64,000 bases of DNA, taken from IMG/VR virus record IMGVR_UViG_3300032050_000061, positions 24,193 to 88,192 of that record, one strand, 5' to 3'. Shown in pieces: positions 2,418 to 31,255 of this stretch (within the stretch, counting starts at the first letter, position 1; each line of letters opens with the position of its first letter). A model generated the notes under the pieces. It was not told the origin of the DNA and made no database searches. It worked only from the letters and a program-made list of their open reading frames with translations. The DNA is from a virus. The translations under genes were made by a program, and so were the position numbers.

Positions 2418-4199
2418 TTAACCTTCACAACTTACACACTCTGGATCCATTGCCTTTGCCGCTATATCACCTCTTAATACCGATTCGGTTCTCATATAGT
2501 AAAGTGTTTTAACACCTTGTTTCCATGCTTCCAAATGAACTTGATTAACCCATTTTGGTTCTGCGGTTGCAGGAAATGCTAAATTTAGAGAAACTGCTTG
2601 GTCGATGTATTGTTGTCTCACACCTGCTTGTCTTACTAAATCCAATTGATTAATTTCTTTAAATGTTTTGAATACATCTTTTACTGAACTACATCGATGT
2701 GCCCTTTCATCAATTGATACTTCTTTACACTCAACTAATTTATCACCTGAAAAACACCAATCATCTAAAAAATCCAATCCTTGTACCGAACCTCCATCTG
2801 CAAGAATTTGATCCCATACTTCTTTATTGTTTTTACCAATCTTACGAAGCACTCTTTCCAATTCAGGATTTTTTCTAATAAATGTTCCTTTTGAAGTTTG
2901 TTCGGTGAATACATTTGCTGCCCACGGCTCAATACCACTACTTACATTACCACTTAATTTTGAGTTTGATACAGTCGGTGCTACTGCTCTTAAATGTGTA
3001 TTACGGAATCCACTCTCTCTACACCAAAGAGGTTCTCCATATTCTGCTGCCAAATCTCTACTTGCACTCTCACTTTCTATTTTCATTTGTGAGAAAATCT
3101 TACGAGTTTCAAATTGGGCTTGTAATCCTTCAAATGGTATTCCCTTTTGTTGTAGGTAAGTATGCCACCCTAATACACCTAATCCTAAGGCTCTGCCTCT
3201 TTCTGCTGAACGAACTGAATTTTCAAAACCTTTCATATTCTTAGCTCTTTGTAAGAACTCCTCCAATACACCATCTAAGAAGATAGTAGATGTATAAACT
3301 AAATCAGTATCTTTCCATTCATCGTACTTTGCTAAGTTTAAGGAACTCAAACAACAAACGAATGAATGTTGCTCATCGGTATGTAATACAATCTCTGAAC
3401 AAATGTTAGTCATGTGAACTTTTAAACCATTCTTTTTGTACATTTCAGGATTTGCTTTGTTCACATTTCCTTTGTACATAATGTAAGGTTCTCCAGTTGC
3501 TTTTCTTTTCTGAAGTAATTTACCCCATTTTCTTCTTGCTTCCGGATCTCCTTCTTCTAATTTTTTCATAAACTTATCACTCACTACTACACATTGGTGT
3601 AAGTTAAGTGATTGACGGTTTACATCACCCTTTGGTTCTCTAATCTCTAAAAAATCATCAAAATCTTTATGTTCGATTTTTATGTTCACCGATGCCGCAC
3701 CTCTACGAACCGCTCCTTGATTAGTTGCTAAGATGGTAGAATCGTATATTTTTGCAAATGGTACAATACCATCGGATGTTCCATTACCGGTGATTTTAGA
3801 ACCCGCAGGTCGTATCATATTGATTCCAATACCAACACCACCACCATGCTTTGCCAACAACATCAACTCTAAATTCTTTGAACCAATCTCATAGATACTA
3901 TCACCCACATCAATACCAAAACATGAAATAGGCAATCCTCTATCAGTACCAGTATTTGATAGTACTGGTGTAGCTAAACACAACCATCCTTTCCAAATGT
4001 AATCAAAAAATTTTGTTGCCAATTGTGGTTTCTCTAATCTTTTGGCTACCGCAGTAGCAACTCTCCAATATGCATCTTTTGGTTTTTCTCCTGCCTGCAA
4101 ATATGTTTTAGATATAGTCTTTACATAAATCTCATTATTTCCCCAAGATGGAAAATCAACATCTACCTCCCAACCGAGTTCTTCGCCGTAATTCTTCAT
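2418..4199 (-). CDS. nrdA: Class I ribonucleotide reductase alpha subunit (no evident ATP cone)
   Basis: PISCF, TNICSEI, APTVSNS, KTLYY and C-terminal CVSCEG motifs. Confidence 0.95.
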   Translation of the reverse strand: MKNYGEELGWEVDVDFPSWGNNEIYVKTISKTYLQAGEKPKDAYWRVATAVAKRLEKPQLATKFFDYIWKGWLCLATPVLSNTGTDRGLPISCFGIDVGDSIYEIGSKNLELMLLAKHGGGVGIGINMIRPAGSKITGNGTSDGIVPFAKIYDSTILATNQGAVRRGAASVNIKIEHKDFDDFLEIREPKGDVNRQSLNLHQCVVVSDKFMKKLEEGDPEARRKWGKLLQKRKATGEPYIMYKGNVNKANPEMYKKNGLKVHMTNICSEIVLHTDEQHSFVCCLSSLNLAKYDEWKDTDLVYTSTIFLDGVLEEFLQRAKNMKGFENSVRSAERGRALGLGVLGWHTYLQQKGIPFEGLQAQFETRKIFSQMKIESESASRDLAAEYGEPLWCRESGFRNTHLRAVAPTVSNSKLSGNVSSGIEPWAANVFTEQTSKGTFIRKNPELERVLRKIGKNNKEVWDQILADGGSVQGLDFLDDWCFSGDKLVECKEVSIDERAHRCSSVKDVFKTFKEINQLDLVRQAGVRQQYIDQAVSLNLAFPATAEPKWVNQVHLEAWKQGVKTLYYMRTESVLRGDIAAKAMDPECVSCEG

Positions 4200-4219
4200 A
4201 AATTTAATTCTTAATTTTT

Positions 4220-5233
4220 TTAAAATATATCATCCCAATTTTCACCTTCACCTGCTTTACTATAATCAGTAGGTCTGATAGCAAAGAAATCAGTATGTGT
4301 CACACCTCCTGTTAAATGGTAGAACCAATCTAATTGAGATGCCTTTTTTTCGGTGTATTCAAAATAGCCATCGCCACCTTTAATTGGGTTATATCCTAAC
4401 TCTCCTAATTTTTCATTAATTCTTTTTGTAATGAATTCTTTTAGGTCATCTGCTTTAAGGTTTTCTAAATCACCCATTTCAAAAATCTTATCAATAAATT
4501 TGTGTTCTAAATCTCTAATTATTTCTGCTGCTTTGTAGATATCAACTTTTGCTTCTTCTAACAATTCAGGATACTCACTACACATGTGTCTGAATAATTG
4601 ACAACCCATCTTCGAATGCAGTGATTCATCTCTAACACTCCACTTCATTTGTTGTCCAATTCCTTTTAGTAAGTTTCTCATTTGGAAACTATAAAGAACT
4701 GCGAATGAAGAATATAATGCCACACCTTCTGCAAATGCCGAAAAGATGGCCAATGAACGAGCAACTTCAATTCTTGCTTTTGGATTAGTTTTTAAATCTT
4801 CCGGTGTCCAATCAGCAGTTGTATTAGTCAATAGTTCAAATCTTTCCTTCATCGCTTCATCGTGTAGGAAACCTTCGAAATCATCTAATCCTAATGTTTC
4901 ATTAAGATATGAATATGCTACTGAATGTATTGTTTCTTGCGAACCAAACGCCATTGCCATTTGTCTAATCTCATGCTTTGGAAACCATTTGGTAACCATG
5001 CCTGTCCAATAATCGGATACGGCACATTCGGTTTGAGCAAATCCTAAAAGGATGTTACCAACTAAATGTTTTTCTTCTTTTGTTAAATTTTCATTCCAAT
5101 CCTTCACATCCATCTGCATAGGGATTTCGGTATGTAACCAAAAAGCCTGCATTTGCTTCAACCAACCTTCGGTATAGTATTCTGGATATTCAAATGGTTT
5201 AAATGGAATTCTTTCGGTAAATAATTTGCTCAT
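4220..5233 (-). CDS. nrdB: Class I ribonucleotide reductase beta subunit
   Basis: ETIH...Y, EGVALYSSF and RDESLH metal ligands; C-terminal DFF motif. Confidence 0.95.
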   Translation of the reverse strand: MSKLFTERIPFKPFEYPEYYTEGWLKQMQAFWLHTEIPMQMDVKDWNENLTKEEKHLVGNILLGFAQTECAVSDYWTGMVTKWFPKHEIRQMAMAFGSQETIHSVAYSYLNETLGLDDFEGFLHDEAMKERFELLTNTTADWTPEDLKTNPKARIEVARSLAIFSAFAEGVALYSSFAVLYSFQMRNLLKGIGQQMKWSVRDESLHSKMGCQLFRHMCSEYPELLEEAKVDIYKAAEIIRDLEHKFIDKIFEMGDLENLKADDLKEFITKRINEKLGELGYNPIKGGDGYFEYTEKKASQLDWFYHLTGGVTHTDFFAIRPTDYSKAGEGENWDDIF

Positions 5234-25809: not shown

Positions 25810-28227
25810 TTAGGTTACTGGATTTTTACTTGCAACACTTGCAATTTTAGATGTAACTAATTGACCATCTATGTACACATTTCTATTTGCCATAAATGCT
25901 GCTTTTAATTCTCTTAATTCAGCAATAACTCCTTCCATAGAAGTCCCTCCACCTTGACTCACCGTATCTGCTAATGCACCTGGATTTTTTGTTGCTATTA
26001 AGAAATCATCCGGTGAAGTAGAAATTACATTACCACCTGGTGAAATAACACCATCTTGTACACTTTCAGCTTTTGTAGTAGCTCCTTCGGTTTGACTATT
26101 CATTGCAGCTGCTCCAGCCGCAATACCACCTATAATTGCAATTGCACCGATACCTAATGTTAATGCAGACATCGTACTAATTGCTGCGATGGCAGATGTT
26201 ATTAAACCTGCTGCAAATGTCCAAACTGCTGCAATACCAGCAAACAATGCTCCTAATAATCCAATAGCCAAACTAGATACGGTTGCAATTACAGTGGGTA
26301 AAATACTAATAACCCATATCGCTGCTAACGTACCAACTAATCCAACAATTGTAGCCATCACAGGCCCCATTTCTTGTAATTTTTTAACCATTCCTCCAAA
26401 ACCATCTTCTACCAATGCCTTTACGGTACCAACCAAATATCCTATCGGAGAAAAAACAGTTTTAATTAAAGAACCTATAAAATTTAATGTTGGAACTAAT
26501 ACACCTGCTAAGAATTTGGCCACTTGTGATAATCCTATTAAAAACATCGATGCCATTGGTGCAAACAAATCGGTAAATGCCGTTCCGATTGCACTCATAC
26601 TATTTTTGAGTGATCCCATAGCATCTTGCATCTTTTGTTGTTTAGCCAATCTTTCAGTTTGGGCTTCTAAATCTGCTTCACTTACATCTGCAATATCTTT
26701 ACCACTTGCAATTAAATCATTTGCCGCTGCCAATCTTGCATCATCTAAACTACCAAACTTATTATAAATTCTTTGAGTATTCATCAAAGTATCTAATTCT
26801 TGACCGGTAGCATCTACTAATGCCTGTTTCTCATATGTAGACATCTTACTGATATCTCCAACACTTGCCAATTCTTTTGTTAGTTCTTTTTGCATTCCTA
26901 ACAAATCTCCGGTAAATGCCAACTCTCTAGCTTTTGAAAAATCTAAGTTAGTTCCTAATAATGCAGATGCTTCTAATTCTTTTGATATACTTTCTTCAAA
27001 GTCTAAAAGTTTATTAGCGCTTGCGGTCATATCTTTAATAGAAGCACCCATTTTAGCTGCATAAACTGCTGCTTTTACTAATTCCTGTGGTGAACCTCTA
27101 AAATATTGATATGCTTCTCCGGCATTTTCTGCCATATCTTTGATTACCTGATCAGGAGAAACTCCAACCATATTGGACATTTCTACCGCTGTCATGGTTA
27201 ATGATGTAGCAGCTGCTTCAGAAAATCCTCCCATATTTTGGAAAACCTTATTTACTTCTGAAGCACTTTTTGCATTCACACCAAAGTTTTTACTCATTAC
27301 TGCTAATGCCGCAACAGTACTTTCTGCGGGTATTGACATCCCATCCATTGCAGTAGTAAAATCACTCATTATTTTACCAACATCTTCCGCACTAACACCT
27401 AATACTCCAAACTTATTACTAACATTTTTAATAGTGTATTCAAGTTCATGCAAATCGGCAGTAGCTAATCCTGTTGTAGTTTTAAAATCGGTTGCAGCTT
27501 TTTCCAAATCATGCATTCTATGCCATCCCAATCCAATTGCGGCACCAATGCCAATAATACCGATTGCAATAGGCCCTAACATTCCGGCAAATCTCATTGC
27601 CAATTTTCCAGCATCTCCTAATCCTGCTTTTATACCACCAAAAGTAGCCTGTGAGAAACTTTTTCCACTAACCAATGAAGATTCAAATGAACGTTTAAAA
27701 CTCATTTTAAATTTATCGGCAACTAATCCAAACATTCTTTGTGATTTTTCAGCGAATGGATGAAATGCATTTTTTAATTTTTCACCGATAAATGGTATAT
27801 CTCCTAATCCATGATCAATAGCATGAAATACATCATGAAATTTATCCTTTACACCATCTACAACACTATTTACTCTTCCTAATATTTTTGCCGCATCTTG
27901 CTGCTTTTGTAATATACCCTGTAAAGCAGTTAATTGTAATTGATAATTTTTTAATAACTTTTGATTTACACCAAAATTTTGAGAAGACATATTATTTGCA
28001 TTCTGTGTTAAAAGATTGATAGCTGCTTGCAAATCTTTCTCATTTTGTAAATCGCTAATTATATCTTTTGTAAGAGATATTTGTGTTGAAAGTTTTTTGT
28101 TTCTCTTATCGGTTTGAGAATCCAATTCTGACAGGGCATCGCTCATCTTTCCCAAAAGAGATTGAGTCATTCCAAGTAATTCATTATATTCTTGTTGTGA
28201 TTTATTTTGATGTCCGTGTTCTGCCAT
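25810..28227 (-). CDS. Tape measure protein
   Basis: 805 aa, Ala/Gly-rich, helical, with hydrophobic segments; downstream of tube and chaperone genes. Confidence 0.85.
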   Translation of the reverse strand: MAEHGHQNKSQQEYNELLGMTQSLLGKMSDALSELDSQTDKRNKKLSTQISLTKDIISDLQNEKDLQAAINLLTQNANNMSSQNFGVNQKLLKNYQLQLTALQGILQKQQDAAKILGRVNSVVDGVKDKFHDVFHAIDHGLGDIPFIGEKLKNAFHPFAEKSQRMFGLVADKFKMSFKRSFESSLVSGKSFSQATFGGIKAGLGDAGKLAMRFAGMLGPIAIGIIGIGAAIGLGWHRMHDLEKAATDFKTTTGLATADLHELEYTIKNVSNKFGVLGVSAEDVGKIMSDFTTAMDGMSIPAESTVAALAVMSKNFGVNAKSASEVNKVFQNMGGFSEAAATSLTMTAVEMSNMVGVSPDQVIKDMAENAGEAYQYFRGSPQELVKAAVYAAKMGASIKDMTASANKLLDFEESISKELEASALLGTNLDFSKARELAFTGDLLGMQKELTKELASVGDISKMSTYEKQALVDATGQELDTLMNTQRIYNKFGSLDDARLAAANDLIASGKDIADVSEADLEAQTERLAKQQKMQDAMGSLKNSMSAIGTAFTDLFAPMASMFLIGLSQVAKFLAGVLVPTLNFIGSLIKTVFSPIGYLVGTVKALVEDGFGGMVKKLQEMGPVMATIVGLVGTLAAIWVISILPTVIATVSSLAIGLLGALFAGIAAVWTFAAGLITSAIAAISTMSALTLGIGAIAIIGGIAAGAAAMNSQTEGATTKAESVQDGVISPGGNVISTSPDDFLIATKNPGALADTVSQGGGTSMEGVIAELRELKAAFMANRNVYIDGQLVTSKIASVASKNPVT

Positions 28228-28241
28228 TTATTATAAAATAA

Positions 28242-28508
28242 TTAATAGTCTAATCCTAAAAATTTTCTTACATCCGTTGGTATAGATTTTTTTACCAATT
28301 CTTTATCTCCTCCCGATATCTTTTCTATTCTATCTTTAACATCTTCTACACGCTTATCAGCATCTTCTACTGCTTTTTTTAATTCTTTATCATTTAATAA
28401 AGCACTTTTCACTCTATTTACAAAGAATTTAGCCAAAAAATTACTCTCGTTTAACCACTTACCATGAGTTTCTTTGAATAATTTCGCTTCCGTTTTTGTG
28501 ATTTTCAT
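28242..28508 (-). CDS. Hypothetical protein (start probably MKITKTE at 28508)
   Basis: ORF track; a late motif at 28530-28538 lies inside the longer call. Confidence 0.7.
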   Translation of the reverse strand: MKITKTEAKLFKETHGKWLNESNFLAKFFVNRVKSALLNDKELKKAVEDADKRVEDVKDRIEKISGGDKELVKKSIPTDVRKFLGLDY

Positions 28509-28543
28509 TTTAAAATAGTTTATCTCTTTTATAAATATCATAT

Positions 28544-28575
28544 AAAATAAAATGAGAGTTATCTATTAACTCTCA
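28544..28575 (-). terminator. Intrinsic terminator overlapping the stop codon of the gp51-like ORF
   Basis: TGAGAGTT-N7-AACTCTCA hairpin followed by TTTTATTTT on the minus strand. Confidence 0.6.
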
Positions 28576-28795
28576 CTTTAGATGGGGTTTTTGGCATTGA
28601 TGATTTTTTTACAGCTTTATTATTAGCCTCATTTTCTTTCTTTTTAGCATCTACCAATTTGTTGTAATAAAAATTTCTCAAATGTATTGGCATATTGTAG
28701 ATTTCAGATTGAGTGAATCCACCATTACCATAATAACATATATCAAAAATTTGAGAATGTAATATTACTGAATAATTAGATGGAAGGGTAAAAAA
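28559..28795 (-). CDS. gp51-like / tail chaperone 'T' ORF with no start codon, probably reached by frameshift
   Basis: Not in the ORF track. Open frame FFTLPSNYSVILHSQIFDICYYGNGGFTQSEIYNMPIHLRNFYYNKLVDAKKKENE...VNR*; the first ATG is mid-domain. Confidence 0.75.
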   Translation of the reverse strand, partial: FFTLPSNYSVILHSQIFDICYYGNGGFTQSEIYNMPIHLRNFYYNKLVDAKKKENEANNKAVKKSSMPKTPSKVRVNR

Positions 28796-29537
28796 ACCCT
28801 ACGCCCATAGGAATCGGGCGTACCTCCTTTTCTCCACTCTCGGGGTCTTCATATTCATATTCCATTACTATATCTGGCTGAAAGGTTTTTATAAACTCTC
28901 TCAAAGCTCTAGTATCTCTTGTTACGAATTTATTATTAATAAAATCTATAATACTCTTTGTATCAGTTTTTCCATCAACTTCAACTATGATGAATCTATA
29001 TCTAGTTGTTAATTCGGCACTTACTCCACTTTTATTCAACTTAGAAAGTGCTTTAATTTCCTCATCGATTTTTTGCTCATCACCATGTGATAACAACTTT
29101 ATCACTAAATTATAGCCCGATGGGGTTTTGAAATTATATCTATTATCTCTTCTTAATATTGATGTATCTATTTCCTTTGTTTGTACTTTTGATAAATCAA
29201 TTTTTACCGTTTCCTTTTCGTCTCTACTATTTAAAATCTCAACTTCATATGAAGGACCATATGCTAAGATTCTTGTTGCTAGCATAATAGCGTTTTTATC
29301 ACCAACTATGATATCAGCTGGATTAATATCCTTATCAACGATAATTGATTCGAATAATTTATCTAAAACTATTCCTTTTTTAATTAAATTTTGTGATGCT
29401 AAAATTTCTTCTTCTTTAGCAGTCATATACTTAATTTCAACCGTTCCTTTTGATAGAGGATTAGATTCGGGATAAACTTTACCTTCTGATGGTAATGATA
29501 TAACCTCCGTTGGAAAATCGTATTTTTGTTCTTGCAT
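28776..29537 (-). CDS. gp26-like baseplate hub / tail assembly chaperone
   Basis: LPSEGKVY...KYMTAKEEEIL, GDKNAIMLATRILAYG and C-terminal GFFYP; between tube and tape measure genes. Confidence 0.8.
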   Translation of the reverse strand: MQEQKYDFPTEVISLPSEGKVYPESNPLSKGTVEIKYMTAKEEEILASQNLIKKGIVLDKLFESIIVDKDINPADIIVGDKNAIMLATRILAYGPSYEVEILNSRDEKETVKIDLSKVQTKEIDTSILRRDNRYNFKTPSGYNLVIKLLSHGDEQKIDEEIKALSKLNKSGVSAELTTRYRFIIVEVDGKTDTKSIIDFINNKFVTRDTRALREFIKTFQPDIVMEYEYEDPESGEKEVRPIPMGVGFFYPSI

Positions 29538-29580
29538 AATAAAACTATATTTTGTATATAGATATATATAACGTTTTTTA

Positions 29581-29617
29581 AAAATAAAAAATAGTAGAGA
29601 TTACTCTCTACTATTTT
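29581..29617 (-). terminator. Intrinsic terminator closing the small-gene island
   Basis: Perfect inverted repeat AAAATAGTAGAGA-TTAC-TCTCTACTATTTT with a U-tract on the minus strand. Confidence 0.8.
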
Positions 29618-29642
29618 ACACATTTACTATTTTAATTCTACC

Positions 29643-29909
29643 TTATGCCGCTTCAATTAAGGAAATCGGAACGATAAACACACCCCCACTCTTTACACTT
29701 AAAGTGGCTTTGGTTCGGTTAATCTTATTAATAGATAACTCCTTACCAGCCAACTTAGGGTGATTTACCCTAACATTCATACCAACTCTCAACCCCACTT
29801 TTTTCTCTAATGAAGCAATGGTTCGTTTTTGTTTAATTAAATCCACTACTAACGAATTAATACTACGCAATTCTTCAATTGATAATTTTGATAATTCTGA
29901 ATAGTTCAT
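29643..29909 (-). CDS. Small hypothetical protein, possibly SH3/KOW-like C-terminus
   Basis: LRVGMNVRV...INKINRTKATL pattern. Confidence 0.7.
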   Translation of the reverse strand: MNYSELSKLSIEELRSINSLVVDLIKQKRTIASLEKKVGLRVGMNVRVNHPKLAGKELSINKINRTKATLSVKSGGVFIVPISLIEAA

Positions 29910-29938
29910 ATCTTTTATATTTTAAGTTTTAAATTTTA

Positions 29939-30229
29939 TTACAAATACATATTAGCTTCAGCAGCCCAATTCTCATTTACCAAATACCAATAAGCATTGT
30001 TTAAGTAAATAATAACATAACCACTATCATTCTCATCTAAACTAATGATTCCTTTTTTAACCAACGAACCCAACGCACCTCTAACACTTTTGGTTGAGAT
30101 TCCTATATCCTCACTTATATCTTTCGCATCTACATCGGAAAAACCCGGTTCAGCGTACAACATTGAAACATAAGATTCCATTACTTTAAGTTCCAATTCG
30201 GTTAATTCTACATCAATCATATTTTTCAT
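29939..30229 (-). CDS. Small winged-helix protein
   Basis: DISEDIGISTKSVRGALGSLVKKGII HTH pattern. Confidence 0.7.
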   Translation of the reverse strand: MKNMIDVELTELELKVMESYVSMLYAEPGFSDVDAKDISEDIGISTKSVRGALGSLVKKGIISLDENDSGYVIIYLNNAYWYLVNENWAAEANMYL

Positions 30230-30253
30230 AACTTATCTCTTTTGATTACATAA

Positions 30254-30291
30254 TAAAGGTAGTAAATATATTTGGATTTTCCAAGCATTTT
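30254..30291 (-). promoter_or_regulatory. Duplicated promoter, copy 1
   Basis: TTGG-N19-TACCTTTA; 29 bp (30263-30291) identical to 30636-30664. Confidence 0.75.
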
Positions 30292-30304
30292 CTCATATTT
30301 ATTT

Positions 30305-30583
30305 TTAATCTCTGGAGTAAAATTTCAAACTCATTATAACATTATCAGGCTTTGTAGCCAATACATCCTCTATATGTTTATTAGCTCTTTCTCTCGCTCC
30401 GAAGTGTCCAAACTCCATCACATCATAATAACCAAGCGTTACCTTATAGAGGTGGGTAGGGAACTTACCACTACCATAGTGTACTCTATGTTCAATGTTA
30501 CTACGTTTTACATTTGGTAGCTTCATCAACGAAGTGATTCGGTTAGAGGAAGCATTGACGGTGAAGAAATCGAAGTCGTTCAT
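30305..30583 (-). CDS. Small hypothetical protein
   Basis: 92-aa ORF with its own promoter copy. Confidence 0.7.
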   Translation of the reverse strand: MNDFDFFTVNASSNRITSLMKLPNVKRSNIEHRVHYGSGKFPTHLYKVTLGYYDVMEFGHFGARERANKHIEDVLATKPDNVIMSLKFYSRD

Positions 30584-30626
30584 ATTTTTAGGGGGTTAGG
30601 GTTATCTCTCATCTCTTATTACATAG

Positions 30627-30664
30627 TAAATATAATAAATATATTTGGATTTTCCAAGCATTTT
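30627..30664 (-). promoter_or_regulatory. Duplicated promoter, copy 2
   Basis: TTGG-N19-TATATTTA; shares a 29-bp exact repeat with copy 1. Confidence 0.75.
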
Positions 30665-30711
30665 GTAAAATATTTTTAAAAATTTTTTATTGAAAATCAA
30701 TCAGTTATGAC

Positions 30712-30743
30712 AAAAAAAGGGATACTTTTTGAGTATCCCTTTT
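30712..30743 (-). terminator. Intrinsic terminator after the tail tube gene
   Basis: AAAAGGGATACT-N5-AGTATCCCTTTT hairpin with a U7 tract on the minus strand. Confidence 0.85.
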
Positions 30744-30763: not shown

Positions 30764-31255
30764 TTAGAATTCCAATATTGCGTAATCGTAAGTTAAAGTT
30801 ACGGTAATCATTGCCGGGTCAGTTGCATTCGCCCAATCTAATTCACCAAAGTTAGCTTGCGATATAAATGCTCCTTTTAATTTCCATTGTTCAATCTTAT
30901 CACCTACTGGCCCTAACATATAGAAATCTACATCTTTTTTGTAAAATTCAGCATATCCATCTCTACCTGTCAAAGATTCGTGAGAAGTTCTTACCCACTC
31001 CATTACCGCCTGTGCTCCTGATGGAACAATTGGGTCATAAAGAGTGATTTCTAAATCTTGCCACTCACCTTTACCTTTTAACTGTCTTTTGATGTTGATG
31101 TGGTCTAATGTTACCTTTTCAAATTGAATTGTAGGTCTGTTACCAGCCTTTACTAAATATGAAGGGATACCGTCAACTTCGAAGATGAAACGATTCTTCA
31201 TCTTTGGTTCGAAGTTCGTATAGAACATCTCGTTAAATTCTAATACTTCTGCCAT
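30764..31255 (-). CDS. Tail tube protein (gp19-like)
   Basis: FEPKMKNRF, WQDLEITLYD, EQWKLKGAF and TLTYDYA; follows the sheath gene. Confidence 0.92.
   Translation of the reverse strand: MAEVLEFNEMFYTNFEPKMKNRFIFEVDGIPSYLVKAGNRPTIQFEKVTLDHINIKRQLKGKGEWQDLEITLYDPIVPSGAQAVMEWVRTSHESLTGRDGYAEFYKKDVDFYMLGPVGDKIEQWKLKGAFISQANFGELDWANATDPAMITVTLTYDYAILEF

What the first reader, a model, noticed from the sequence alone, without database searches (positions are those of the whole stretch)
28559..28810. Hidden +1/-2 programmed frameshift joining the gp26-like chaperone to a gp51-like ORF with no start codon
Seen: the 253-aa gene ends GTA GGG TTT TTT TAC CCT TCC ATC TAA, with a U7 run at 28790-28796. 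In the +1 (equivalently -2) frame, an open frame continues from the U-run for 78 sense codons (FFTLPSNYSVILHSQIFDICYYGNGGFTQSEIYNMPIHLRNFYYNKL...) to TAA at 28559-28561 and a terminator. It has no ATG/GTG/TTG before the mid-domain Met, so the ORF caller missed it. Established: lambda-type G/GT tail chaperones sit between tube and tape measure genes and are fused by frameshifting, usually -1 and -2 in Mu. Inference: the T4-like gp26/gp51 pair here acts as a G/GT pair, using Phe-tRNA slippage on UUU-UUU-U in an unusual direction.
Basis: partly seen in the sequence, partly recalled or inferred. Interest (0 to 1): 0.8.

Follow-up and report, generated by a model that had tools for sequence, protein, structure and literature searches.

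The report
Frameshift cassette in phage tail chaperone
A freshwater phage's tail-assembly chaperone gene very probably makes a short and a long protein by shifting into the +1 reading frame at a strictly conserved run of seven T's preceded by a hairpin, which brings the phage T4 gp26/gp51 family under the frameshift rule from which T4 is said to be the exception.

Summary
A 253-aa minus-strand gene (29537-28776) ends four codons after TTT TTT T (28796-28790). A 78-codon +1 frame runs on to 28559. It is closed by a TAG just 5' of the run and has no start codon before its only Met.

The site is conserved. Of 111 related loci, 110 have the second ORF in the +1 frame. There are 94 distinct T7 junctions, and 50 offer no ATG/GTG/TTG. 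The two Phe codons are TTT in 193 of 194 cases, against 21-44% TTC elsewhere in the gene. The +1 frame shows third-position wobble. Natural single-ORF proteins of about 300 aa align colinearly with the predicted fusion.

ORF1 is T4 gp26-like, and its N-terminal domain resembles the three solved tail assembly chaperones. ORF2 corresponds to the C-terminal extension of T4 gp51. The gene lies between the tube and tape-measure genes, so the G/GT-like reading is supported.

A conserved GC-rich hairpin ends 3-4 nt before the T-run and looks like a terminator. A wobble-conserved GGAGG lies just 5' of it. The mechanism is open: ribosomal +1 slip (my preference) or hairpin-driven RNA polymerase slippage that deletes one U.

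This scan had already noted the same family on other DNA, as -1 in T4-like marine phages and as +1 in two first-reader notes. I found no publication.

The parts
28776..29537 (-). ORF1, 253 aa (P0001). This is the short form, a T4 gp26-like (PF12322 / phrog_150) hub and tail assembly chaperone. Its stop codon TAA is at 28778-28776.
   Evidence: N-terminal domain has a TAC-like fold
28790..28796 (-). Shift site: seven T's, read in the ORF1 frame as TTT TTT T(AC).
   Evidence: There are 94 distinct T7 junctions, all in this phase. The Phe codons are TTT in 97/98 and 96/96, against 21-44% TTC elsewhere.
28800..28822 (-). GC-rich hairpin (stem TACGCCC / GGGCGTA, 7-9 nt loop). It ends 3 nt before the T-run, and hairpin plus T-run resemble an intrinsic terminator.
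   Evidence: Found. In 94 loci the 28 nt 5' of the run fold at a median of -7.0 kcal/mol, against -1.0 for other ORF1 windows. GC is 54% against 29%. The stem sequence differs between clades.
28823..28827 (-). GGAGG, directly 5' of the hairpin and 26 nt before the first T. It is conserved at wobble positions. Its role is unknown; it may be a Shine-Dalgarno-like stimulator.
   Evidence: At this Glu codon GAG outnumbers GAA 87:1, where other Glu columns mostly use GAA. The third base of the variable preceding codon is G in 85/94. None of 26 gene starts in the window has a Shine-Dalgarno motif.
28799..28801 (-). TAG in the +1 frame. It closes ORF2 on its 5' side, so entry into ORF2 must happen between here and the ORF1 stop (23 nt).
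28559..28795 (-). ORF2 in the +1 frame: 78 sense codons (P0002) plus TAA at 28561-28559. This is the extension of the long form (about 325 aa, P0003) and the counterpart of the C-terminal extension of T4 gp51.
   Evidence: in the AF2 model of the fusion this part forms helices at pLDDT 79-91
28548..28580 (-). Terminator-like hairpin and T-tract overlapping the end of ORF2.
30764..31255 (-). Tail tube gene (gp19-like), upstream neighbour in the module.
   Evidence: In most relatives it lies about 110 nt upstream of ORF1.
25810..28227 (-). 805-aa protein, tape-measure-like by position and by a weak TMP_3 match. It is the downstream neighbour after a 99-aa ORF.
   Evidence: PF20155, E 0.005, below the cut-off. 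In Flavobacterium phage immuto the gene in this position is annotated as tape measure.

Best explanation
The gene is the phage's tail and hub assembly chaperone. It is expressed in two forms from one locus. Standard decoding gives a 253-aa gp26-like protein. A minority of decoding events enters the +1 frame at UUU UUU U and gives a protein of about 325 aa whose extra 76 residues correspond to the C-terminal extension of T4 gp51. This is the T4-family counterpart of lambda gpG/gpGT.

I favour ribosomal +1 slippage. Peptidyl-tRNA-Phe on a UUU codon re-pairs one base downstream with UUU, giving ...GVGFF-TLPSNY.... The conserved 5' elements would help it: a GGAGG that the hairpin could bring next to the shift site, as with the Shine-Dalgarno element 3 nt before the prfB shift site, and a refolding hairpin that favours forward movement.

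Shown: the anatomy, its conservation, coding selection in the +1 frame, colinearity with natural fusions, and family and fold assignment.
Inferred: that a trans-frame product is made, the ribosomal mechanism, the ratio of the two forms, and the G/GT-like division of labour.
For: Conservation.
- 110 of 111 loci have ORF2 in the +1 frame.
- There are 94 distinct T7 junctions, all in the same codon phase. 50 have no ATG/GTG/TTG before the conserved FF, and 36 have a stop directly before.
- Both Phe codons show synonymous constraint: TTT 97/98 and 96/96, against 27-44% TTC at three other conserved Phe columns.
- Codon-position entropies show third-position wobble in the +1 frame upstream of the only Met, which is itself only 86% conserved.

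The fused product.
- 418 ORF2 homologues were found. About 11 of the best 150 are single ORFs, nine of them 293-318 aa, with this domain at the C-terminus. They align colinearly with the +1 product through the junction.
- The fused model folds as one unit: pLDDT 86.8, pTM 0.82.

Family and fold.
- ORF1 matches phrog_150 at profile positions 8-231 of 282. T4 gp26 aligns and ends ...EFFELL at the junction.
- T4 gp51 fills phrog_150 to position 280. The natural fusion P0131 aligns to positions 21-277. The -1 ORF of cyanophage Syn9 matches phrog_634 and phrog_150 positions 231-278.
- The three solved tail assembly chaperones rank 1-3 of 48,161 chains for the N-terminal domain, at Z 6.7, 5.5 and 4.9. 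The next hit is at 3.4 (their identities come from PMC9603447).
- Gene order is tube, this gene, tape measure.

For a ribosomal slip.
- Relatives without T7 keep the +1 offset with UUU-Y or CUU-U: SP-15 has TTT TTT C, GXN1 has TTC TTT C, L101 has TTC TTT T, and immuto has TTT CTT T.
- GGAGG is conserved at wobble positions. An RNA polymerase mechanism gives it no role.
- UUU_U is a known +1 shift site in some prfB genes (PMC5009743).
- An upstream hairpin stimulated +1 frameshifting in a yeast reporter (PMC3639245).
Against: - No product was observed.
- The 0-frame codon after the run (TAC, TGG or TAT) is neither a stop nor obviously slow, unlike known bacterial +1 sites.
- GGAGG lies 26 nt from the run in linear distance, and the phage's own genes use no Shine-Dalgarno motif.
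- No conserved downstream structure was found.
- A hairpin followed by a U-tract is the classical signal for RNA polymerase, not for the ribosome.
- Every relative that lacks T7 and was checked also has a possible TTG or ATG for ORF2. These cannot prove a ribosomal slip.
Confidence: 0.5

Rival explanations
1. The two products are the same, but RNA polymerase makes the shift. The nascent GC-rich hairpin forms 3-4 nt behind the U-run and melts the upstream end of the RNA:DNA hybrid. The rU:dA hybrid then realigns forward, so a fraction of transcripts carries U6. Standard translation of those transcripts reads ORF1 and ORF2 as one frame. This is the mechanism described for the Roseiflexus IS630 transposase.
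For: - The terminator scan calls hairpin 28822..28800 plus GGG plus T7.
- In 94 loci the 28 nt before the run fold at a median of -7.0 kcal/mol, against -1.0 for other windows. In 79% of loci this window is among the most stable 5% of that ORF1.
- GC is 54% against 29%. The stem ends 3-4 nt before the first T in 60 of 94, so spacer plus U7 is about 10 nt, the length of the hybrid.
- Stem sequences differ between clades while the hairpin is kept.
- The homopolymer is strictly kept, including the wobble base of the first Phe codon.
- A one-base deletion gives exactly the +1 frame.
- In the precedent, the stem-loop lies 5' adjacent to the motif and yields transcripts lacking one base (PMC5009743 section 43).
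- There is no slow codon and no downstream structure.
Against: - RNA-library contigs across the site carry U7 with no indel. Contigs cannot show a minority species, and DNA carry-over is possible.
- Efficient slippage by bacterial polymerase is documented for runs of 9. Seven is short, although the hairpin may compensate.
- The conserved GGAGG has no role in this model.
- Relatives with TTTCTTT, TTCTTTT or TTCTTTC keep the +1 offset.
Confidence: 0.35
2. ORF2 is made as a separate small protein without any fusion. This would happen by initiation at a non-canonical codon or by termination-reinitiation at the ORF1 stop. It would then associate non-covalently with the ORF1 product.
For: - One jumbo-phage relative (L027) has ORF2 as its own gene, with an ATG overlapping the ORF1 stop and in the other frame. 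L002 has an ATG in the overlap.
- About half of the T7 loci have a TTG or GTG somewhere in the overlap.
- Gene callers list many stand-alone ORF2 proteins.
Against: - In the window and 49 other distinct junctions no ATG/GTG/TTG exists. In 36 a stop lies directly before the codon that precedes FF.
- The residues FF-x-L-P-x-N-Y-S upstream of any possible near-cognate start are conserved, and the columns past the ORF1 stop show the coding pattern.
- This model does not explain the T7 and hairpin conservation.
- The TTG codons are a by-product of the frame-0 codons TTT GGG.
Confidence: 0.07
3. Ribosomal -2 frameshift, as proposed for phage Mu and shown for arterivirus nsp2TF. The A-site tRNA-Phe moves back two bases on the U-run, which gives one extra Phe (GFFFTL).
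For: The -2 and +1 shifts reach the same frame. The A-site codon UUU can re-pair perfectly two bases back. -2 shifts are known in tail chaperone genes (PMC5009743).
Against: The P-site tRNA would land on GGU, ACU or GCU. Natural in-frame fusions have two, not three, hydrophobic residues before G/N/T-L, which matches the +1 product. No downstream stimulator was found.
Confidence: 0.05
4. The hairpin plus T7 is only an internal attenuator or terminator that lowers transcription of the tape-measure and baseplate genes. On this reading the frame break is a decaying fusion gene or a sequencing artefact.
For: The cassette matches the terminator consensus.
Against: - The break is identical in about 100 loci from many samples.
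- ORF2 is under purifying selection.
- A 3-4 nt non-U spacer weakens a terminator.
- RNA-library contigs run through the site.
Confidence: 0.03

Closest known systems
Lambda gpG/gpGT and the conserved frameshift of tail assembly chaperone genes (Levin 1993; Xu, Hendrix and Duda 2004; reviewed in PMC5009743)
   Same: The gene lies between the tube and tape-measure genes. There are two overlapping ORFs with a slippery run a few codons before the first stop. A short and a C-terminally extended product are predicted. The N-terminal domain resembles the solved TACs (HK97 gp13 2OB9, YqbN 3KLU, 3FGX). The review already states that -1, -2 or +1 is used in different phages.
   Different: The protein is 253 aa with extra domains, against about 140 aa for gpG. 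It belongs to the T4 gp26/gp51 family (PF12322). The shift goes to the +1 frame on UUU UUU U, not -1 on X XXY YYZ. The cassette has a 5' hairpin and a GGAGG. The review names T4 as the exception to the rule.
Phage T4 gp26 (208 aa) and gp51 (249 aa), hub assembly chaperones (Leiman et al. 2010, PMC3004832)
   Same: ORF1 aligns to gp26, which ends at the same FF motif. gp51 has the same domain plus a C-terminal extension that occupies the profile positions ORF2 would fill.
   Different: T4 has two separate, divergently transcribed genes and no frameshift. The window protein lacks the four conserved cysteines. Direct ORF2 to gp51 similarity is not significant; it is supported only transitively.
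gp26-like / 'gp51-like' gene pair of T4-like cyanophages, for example Syn9 gp12/gp13
   Same: The family and position are the same, next to large tape-measure-like genes. The break is at the same FF codons. The annotated 47-aa 'gp51-like' ORF is the tail of a longer start-less frame.
   Different: There the second frame is -1 and the site is T TTT TTC, a classical -1 heptamer. No comparable 5' hairpin is evident in the one example I read. Earlier notes of this scan describe that -1 form.
Roseiflexus IS630 hairpin-dependent transcriptional slippage (Penno et al. 2015, via PMC5009743)
   Same: A GC-rich stem-loop lies directly 5' of a slippage motif of about 10 nt. The outcome is a one-base deletion, which gives the +1 frame. 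The features are shared with intrinsic terminators.
   Different: The motif there is U5C5 with no spacer. Here it is a 3-4 nt spacer plus U7. No U6 transcripts have been seen.
prfB (release factor 2) +1 frameshift
   Same: The P-site tRNA re-pairs +1 on YUU_U. UUU_U occurs in some species. There is a Shine-Dalgarno-like element 5' of the site.
   Different: There is no stop codon in the A site. GGAGG is 26 nt away unless the hairpin bridges the gap. No autoregulatory logic applies.

Membership tests
T4 gp26/gp51 hub assembly chaperones (Pfam PF12322, phrog_150) | Significant match of the core domain to the family profile | tested here: met
   P0001 matches phrog_150 at E 4e-10 over profile positions 8-231. 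hhalign to T4 gp26 gives 90.8% probability. Homologues at up to 84% identity (P0024) carry PF12322, and P0052 (74% identity) scores above the cut-off. P0001 itself is below Pfam detection.
T4 gp26/gp51 hub assembly chaperones (Pfam PF12322, phrog_150) | The long form carries the gp51-type C-terminal extension | tested here: inconclusive
   Transitive evidence: ORF2 matches the C-terminus of P0131 at E 2.8e-13. P0131 aligns to phrog_150 positions 21-277, and gp51 to positions 13-280. 4 of 48 ORF2 homologues hit phrog_634, best E 0.002. Direct hhalign of ORF2 against gp51 is not significant.
T4 gp26/gp51 hub assembly chaperones (Pfam PF12322, phrog_150) | Two Cys pairs (CxxC ... CxxC) conserved in T4 gp26, gp51 and the natural fusions | tested here: not met
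   In alignment A1 four Cys columns are nearly invariant, but the window protein has none of them.
T4 gp26/gp51 hub assembly chaperones (Pfam PF12322, phrog_150) | Needed for hub assembly and absent from the virion | not testable with these tools
   This needs genetics and virion proteomics.
Lambda G/GT-type tail assembly chaperone with programmed frameshift | Gene located between the tail tube and tape-measure genes | tested here: met
   The order is sheath, tube, this gene, a 99-aa ORF, then an 805-aa TMP-like gene. The same order is seen in immuto, SP-15 and Mel-JY01 and in the IMG/VR loci.
Lambda G/GT-type tail assembly chaperone with programmed frameshift | Conserved slippery site near the end of ORF1 that leads into a start-less overlapping ORF | tested here: met
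Lambda G/GT-type tail assembly chaperone with programmed frameshift | -1 shift on an X XXY YYZ heptamer | tested here: not met
   The offset is +1 in 110 of 111 loci. The T-run is in phase XXX XXX X.
Lambda G/GT-type tail assembly chaperone with programmed frameshift | TAC fold of the G part | tested here: met
   3fgx_B scores Z 6.7 (86 residues aligned), 2ob9_B (HK97 TAC) Z 5.5 and 3klu_A Z 4.9. They rank 1-3 of 48,161 chains, and the next hit is at 3.4 (the same three lead). The Z values are modest, so this shows fold resemblance and does not prove homology.
Lambda G/GT-type tail assembly chaperone with programmed frameshift | The G part binds the tape measure, the T part binds the tube protein, and the short form is in large excess | not testable with these tools
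   This needs pull-downs and quantification of both forms.
Hairpin-dependent transcriptional slippage (Roseiflexus IS630 type) | Stable nascent-RNA stem-loop directly 5' of the slippage motif | tested here: met
   there is a 3-4 nt spacer instead of none
Hairpin-dependent transcriptional slippage (Roseiflexus IS630 type) | A fraction of transcripts lacks one base of the motif | tested here: inconclusive
   Only assembled contigs of RNA libraries were available. They carry U7 and cannot show minority species.
prfB-type +1 ribosomal frameshift | P-site codon allows +1 re-pairing (CUU_U or UUU_U) | tested here: met
   UUU UUU U is present. Variants keep UUU-Y or CUU-U.
prfB-type +1 ribosomal frameshift | Stop or slow codon in the A site, and a Shine-Dalgarno element about 3 nt upstream | tested here: not met
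   The next codon is TAC, TGG or TAT. GGAGG lies 26 nt upstream in the linear sequence.

The most novel reading that the evidence does not exclude
The T4 gp26/gp51 chaperone family carries one ancient recoding site at its conserved Phe-Phe codons, and different lineages read it in opposite directions: -1 on U UUU UUC in T4-like cyanophages, +1 on UUU UUU U here. The +1 lineages have evolved a previously undescribed three-part cassette of GGAGG, a terminator-like hairpin and U7. This cassette works either as the first natural bacterial case of a +1 frameshift stimulated by a 5' hairpin, in a host that does not use Shine-Dalgarno initiation, or as the first phage structural gene expressed through hairpin-driven RNA polymerase slippage.
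Probability: 0.3. Interest if true: 0.8.

Novelty: new variant of a known kind. Interest (0 to 1): 0.68.

Why it matters
- Programmed frameshifting in tail chaperone genes is called nearly universal in long-tailed phages 'except T4' (PMC5009743). These data indicate that the T4-type chaperones gp26 and gp51 are the two-gene version of the same short-form and long-form principle. Large groups of T4-related freshwater and marine phages still make both forms from one gene by recoding.
- This gives a testable role for gp26 and gp51, whose function in T4 has been unclear for decades.
- It corrects the annotation of a hidden gene part. GenBank records of Flavobacterium phage immuto, Bacillus phage SP-15, Microcystis phage Mel-JY01 and cyanophage Syn9 show only 37-78-aa fragments of it.
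- It offers a compact natural cassette (GGAGG, hairpin, U7) for separating ribosomal +1 slippage from hairpin-driven polymerase slippage.

Tried and rejected
- Pfam and PHROG scans of ORF2 alone gave nothing significant. The fused P0003 against PHROGs gave no hit at all, although ORF1 alone does hit. I treat this as a filter effect.
- An HMM of ORF2 against the whole T4 genome found nothing. hhalign of ORF2 profiles against T4 gp51 and the Syn9 -1 ORF gave the expected colinear alignments at non-significant E-values of 0.28-0.8 and 0.071.
- RNAalifold on 94 junctions from -40 to +130 gave no consensus structure. It missed the 5' hairpin because the stems differ between clades.
- Foldseek against the PDB found nothing. 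The ORF2 helices gave only generic helical matches at Z<=5.
- Complex prediction of the tube protein with the ORF2 domain returned no verdict, score 0.00. This is neither for nor against binding.
- The search for related loci failed with the ORF2 alignment and found few or no loci with single ORF2 proteins. A region search with the natural fusion P0158 found only itself.
The DNA of the natural in-frame fusions could therefore not be inspected.
- The sequencing runs were available only as contigs. A minority of U6 transcripts could be neither seen nor excluded.
- I considered GGAGG pairing with the CCUUCC downstream of the run. I rejected it because the partner is not conserved (CCUACC, CCUGCC, CCUGAC).
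- I considered GGAGG as a Shine-Dalgarno element for a TTG in the overlap. I rejected it because the spacing is 15 nt and the window has a TAG in between.
- Literature searches found no report of a frameshift in gp26/gp51-family genes.
Full report
**1. Observation**

On the minus strand a 253-aa ORF (29537-28776, P0001) ends GTA GGG TTT TTT TAC CCT TCC ATC TAA. The seven T's lie at 28796-28790. The +1 frame is closed by TAG at 28801-28799. It then reads GFFTLPSNYS... for 78 codons after the Gly, to TAA at 28561-28559. The first ATG/GTG/TTG in that frame is the Met in the middle of the domain. A terminator-like hairpin overlaps the end of ORF2.

Elsewhere in the window, alternative frames stay open for a median of 8 codons past a stop. 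Only five T>=7 runs lie in 57.5 kb of sense coding sequence. This one alone starts at codon position 1 and sits near a gene end.

**2. It is not an error and it is conserved**

A search with the fused product found 5,080 homologues. All 120 listed (66-100% identity) cover only the ORF1 part and are 250-253 aa, a few 267-277. An independent freshwater DNA contig and two RNA-library contigs carry the same T7 without an indel.

I fetched 21 and then 80 related viral contigs, plus GenBank phages. Of 111 loci that hold both parts, 110 have ORF2 in the +1 frame. Among them are 94 distinct T7 junctions:
- In all 94 the run starts at codon position 1 of ORF1.
- 50 have no ATG/GTG/TTG in the ORF2 frame before the conserved FF.
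- 36 have a stop directly before.
- The next 0-frame codon is TAC in 58, TGG in 32 and TAT in 4.
- The ORF1 stop follows four codons later in 81.

The two Phe codons are TTT in 97/98 and 96/96 sequences. Three other conserved Phe columns of the same gene use TTC in 27-44%, and all ORF1 Phe codons use it in 21%. In the +1 frame, conserved columns upstream of the only Met have fixed first and second positions and a free third position. The Met itself is only 86% conserved. That part is therefore translated in the +1 frame.

**3. The fused product is a natural protein architecture**

A phmmer search of ORF2 against 1.84 billion representatives gave 418 hits. Most are 55-120-aa gene calls that begin a few codons before a nearly invariant FFGL. 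About eleven of the best 150 are single ORFs with this domain at the C-terminus, nine of them 293-318 aa. They align colinearly with the +1 product through the junction. AlphaFold2 folds the fusion with a mean pLDDT of 86.8 and pTM of 0.82. The extension forms helices at 255-311 with block pLDDT mostly 79-91.

**4. What the protein is**

- ORF1 matches phrog_150 ('baseplate hub') over profile positions 8-231 of 282. Close homologues carry PF12322.
- T4 gp26 aligns at 90.8% probability and ends ...EFFELL at the junction.
- T4 gp51 has the same domain plus 48 more residues and fills phrog_150 to position 280.
- The natural fusion P0131 aligns to phrog_150 positions 21-277, that is, through the junction.
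- In cyanophage Syn9, the annotated 47-aa 'gp51-like' ORF is the tail of a start-less -1 frame. That frame opens at GCT TCT TTT TTC GGG TAG and matches phrog_634 (E 2e-30) and phrog_150 positions 231-278.
- Four of 48 ORF2 homologues hit phrog_634 directly.

ORF2 is therefore the counterpart of the gp51 extension. Direct similarity to T4 gp51 is not significant.

BFVD models named 'baseplate hub assembly protein, T4-like' match the fused model, with E-values down to 7e-20. In an exhaustive structure comparison, the three solved tail assembly chaperones rank 1-3 of 48,161 chains, both for the whole model and for the N-terminal domain alone. These are 3FGX, HK97 gp13 (2OB9) and YqbN (3KLU). Their Z scores are 6.7, 5.5 and 4.9, and the next hit is at 3.4. 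PMC9603447 identifies all three as TACs.

The gene lies between the tube gene and a tape-measure-like gene, as in its relatives. The held 88-kb record, about 46% complete, has only this one copy. Leiman et al. list gp26 and gp51 as hub assembly chaperones (PMC3004832).

**5. New elements at the site**

The terminator scan reports a hairpin at 28822-28800 (stem TACGCCC / GGGCGTA), followed by GGG and the T7. Across 94 loci:
- The 28 nt before the run fold at a median of -7.0 kcal/mol, against -1.0 for other 28-nt windows of the same genes.
- In 79% of loci this window is among the most stable 5% of that ORF1.
- Its GC content is 54% against 29%.
- The stem ends 3-4 nt before the first T in 60 of 94.
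- Stem sequences differ between clades: UACGCCC/GGGCGUA, AUCCC/GGGAU, GACCGUC/GACGGUC and GUGCC/GGCAC.

Directly 5' of the hairpin lies GGAGG (28827-28823). It is kept at wobble positions: GAG outnumbers GAA 87:1 at a Glu codon, and G is the third base of a variable codon in 85/94. None of 26 gene starts in the window has a Shine-Dalgarno motif. No conserved downstream structure was found.

**6. Mechanism**

Both main candidates yield ...GVGFF-TLPSNY....

*Ribosomal +1 slippage.* This is favoured by three observations:
- Perfect +1 re-pairing of tRNA-Phe is possible on the run.
- The conserved GGAGG could be brought next to the site by the hairpin, as with the Shine-Dalgarno element 3 nt before the prfB shift site.
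- Relatives without T7 keep the +1 offset with UUU-Y or CUU-U: SP-15, GXN1, L101 and immuto.

UUU_U is a known prfB shift site in some species. An upstream hairpin stimulated +1 shifting in a yeast reporter (PMC3639245). Against this model, there is no stop or slow codon in the A site, and GGAGG is 26 nt away in linear distance.

*Hairpin-driven polymerase slippage.* This is favoured by the terminator-like architecture. Spacer plus U7 is about the length of the RNA:DNA hybrid, the homopolymer is strictly kept, and a one-base deletion gives exactly the +1 frame. The Roseiflexus IS630 case is the precedent (PMC5009743). Against this model, seven U's is short, GGAGG has no role, and the RNA-library contigs carry U7, although they cannot show a minority species.

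My estimates are ribosomal +1 at about 0.5, polymerase slippage at about 0.35, separate initiation at about 0.07 and -2 at about 0.05. Natural fusions have two, not three, hydrophobic residues at the junction, which counts against -2.

**7. Variation in the family**

ORF2 can be fused in frame. It can be reached by +1, as in this clade, Mel-JY01 and SP-15. It can be reached by -1, as in Syn9. It can be a separate gene with its own ATG (L027), or part of a second paralogue (T4 gp51). The recoding site sits at the same Phe-Phe codons in both directions.

**8. Comparison with what is known, and novelty**

The review PMC5009743 states that G-T frameshifting is conserved in long-tailed phages 'except T4', and that -1, -2 or +1 is used in different phages. 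A frameshift in a tail chaperone is therefore a known kind of thing. Three aspects are new:
- The family is T4 gp26/gp51.
- The shift is +1 on U7.
- The cassette has a 5' hairpin and a GGAGG.

I found no publication describing it. Earlier notes of this scan describe the -1 form in T4-like marine phages, and two first-reader notes describe the +1 form on other genomes. I confirmed the -1 form only in Syn9.

**9. Verdict**

The mechanism remains open between ribosome and polymerase. I class it as a new variant of a known kind.

Noticed in passing
window 28823-28827 (- strand): GGAGG lies directly 5' of the hairpin and 26 nt before the T-run. It is conserved at wobble positions in about 90 of 94 related loci, although no gene start in the window has a Shine-Dalgarno motif. 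Its role is unexplained.
   Followed up: partly
window 29580-30743 (- strand): Three small ORFs (88, 96 and 92 aa; one is a winged-helix protein) lie between the tube gene and the chaperone gene. In most related contigs the tube gene ends only about 110 nt before the chaperone gene, so this looks like an insertion specific to a few genomes.
   Followed up: partly
window 28242-28541 (- strand): A 99-aa ORF between ORF2 and the tape-measure-like gene has no Pfam or PHROG match. Mel-JY01 has a 71-aa ORF in this position. Immuto and SP-15 have none.
   Followed up: no
window 28776-29537; alignment A1: The window protein and its close relatives have lost all four cysteines (two CxxC-like pairs) that are nearly invariant in the natural in-frame fusions and present in T4 gp26 and gp51.
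   Followed up: partly
window 28562-28585 (- strand); alignment A5: ORF2 ends in a conserved basic tail (SKVRVNR, KVRIKR, VRRR) after a variable low-complexity linker. This may be a binding motif.
   Followed up: no
L024 (MW353176) 4739-4961; L025 (KT624200) 4730-4928; L001 (PP395634) 3989-4225; L116 (NC_008296) 2202-2392: The GenBank records annotate only a 37-47-aa internal-Met fragment of the second frame (immuto, SP-15, Syn9), or start it from a TTG (Mel-JY01). None marks a frameshift.
   Followed up: yes
window 28545-28858: One contig of an RNA library (X15, record 7) joins 28858 back to 28545 ('goes back 314'), which duplicates the ORF2 region. It may be an assembly artefact and was not explained.
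   Followed up: no
window 29588-29617 (- strand): A 13-bp terminator-like hairpin with a T-tract lies just upstream of the chaperone gene, after the three-gene island. The chaperone gene may therefore start a transcription unit of its own.
   Followed up: no
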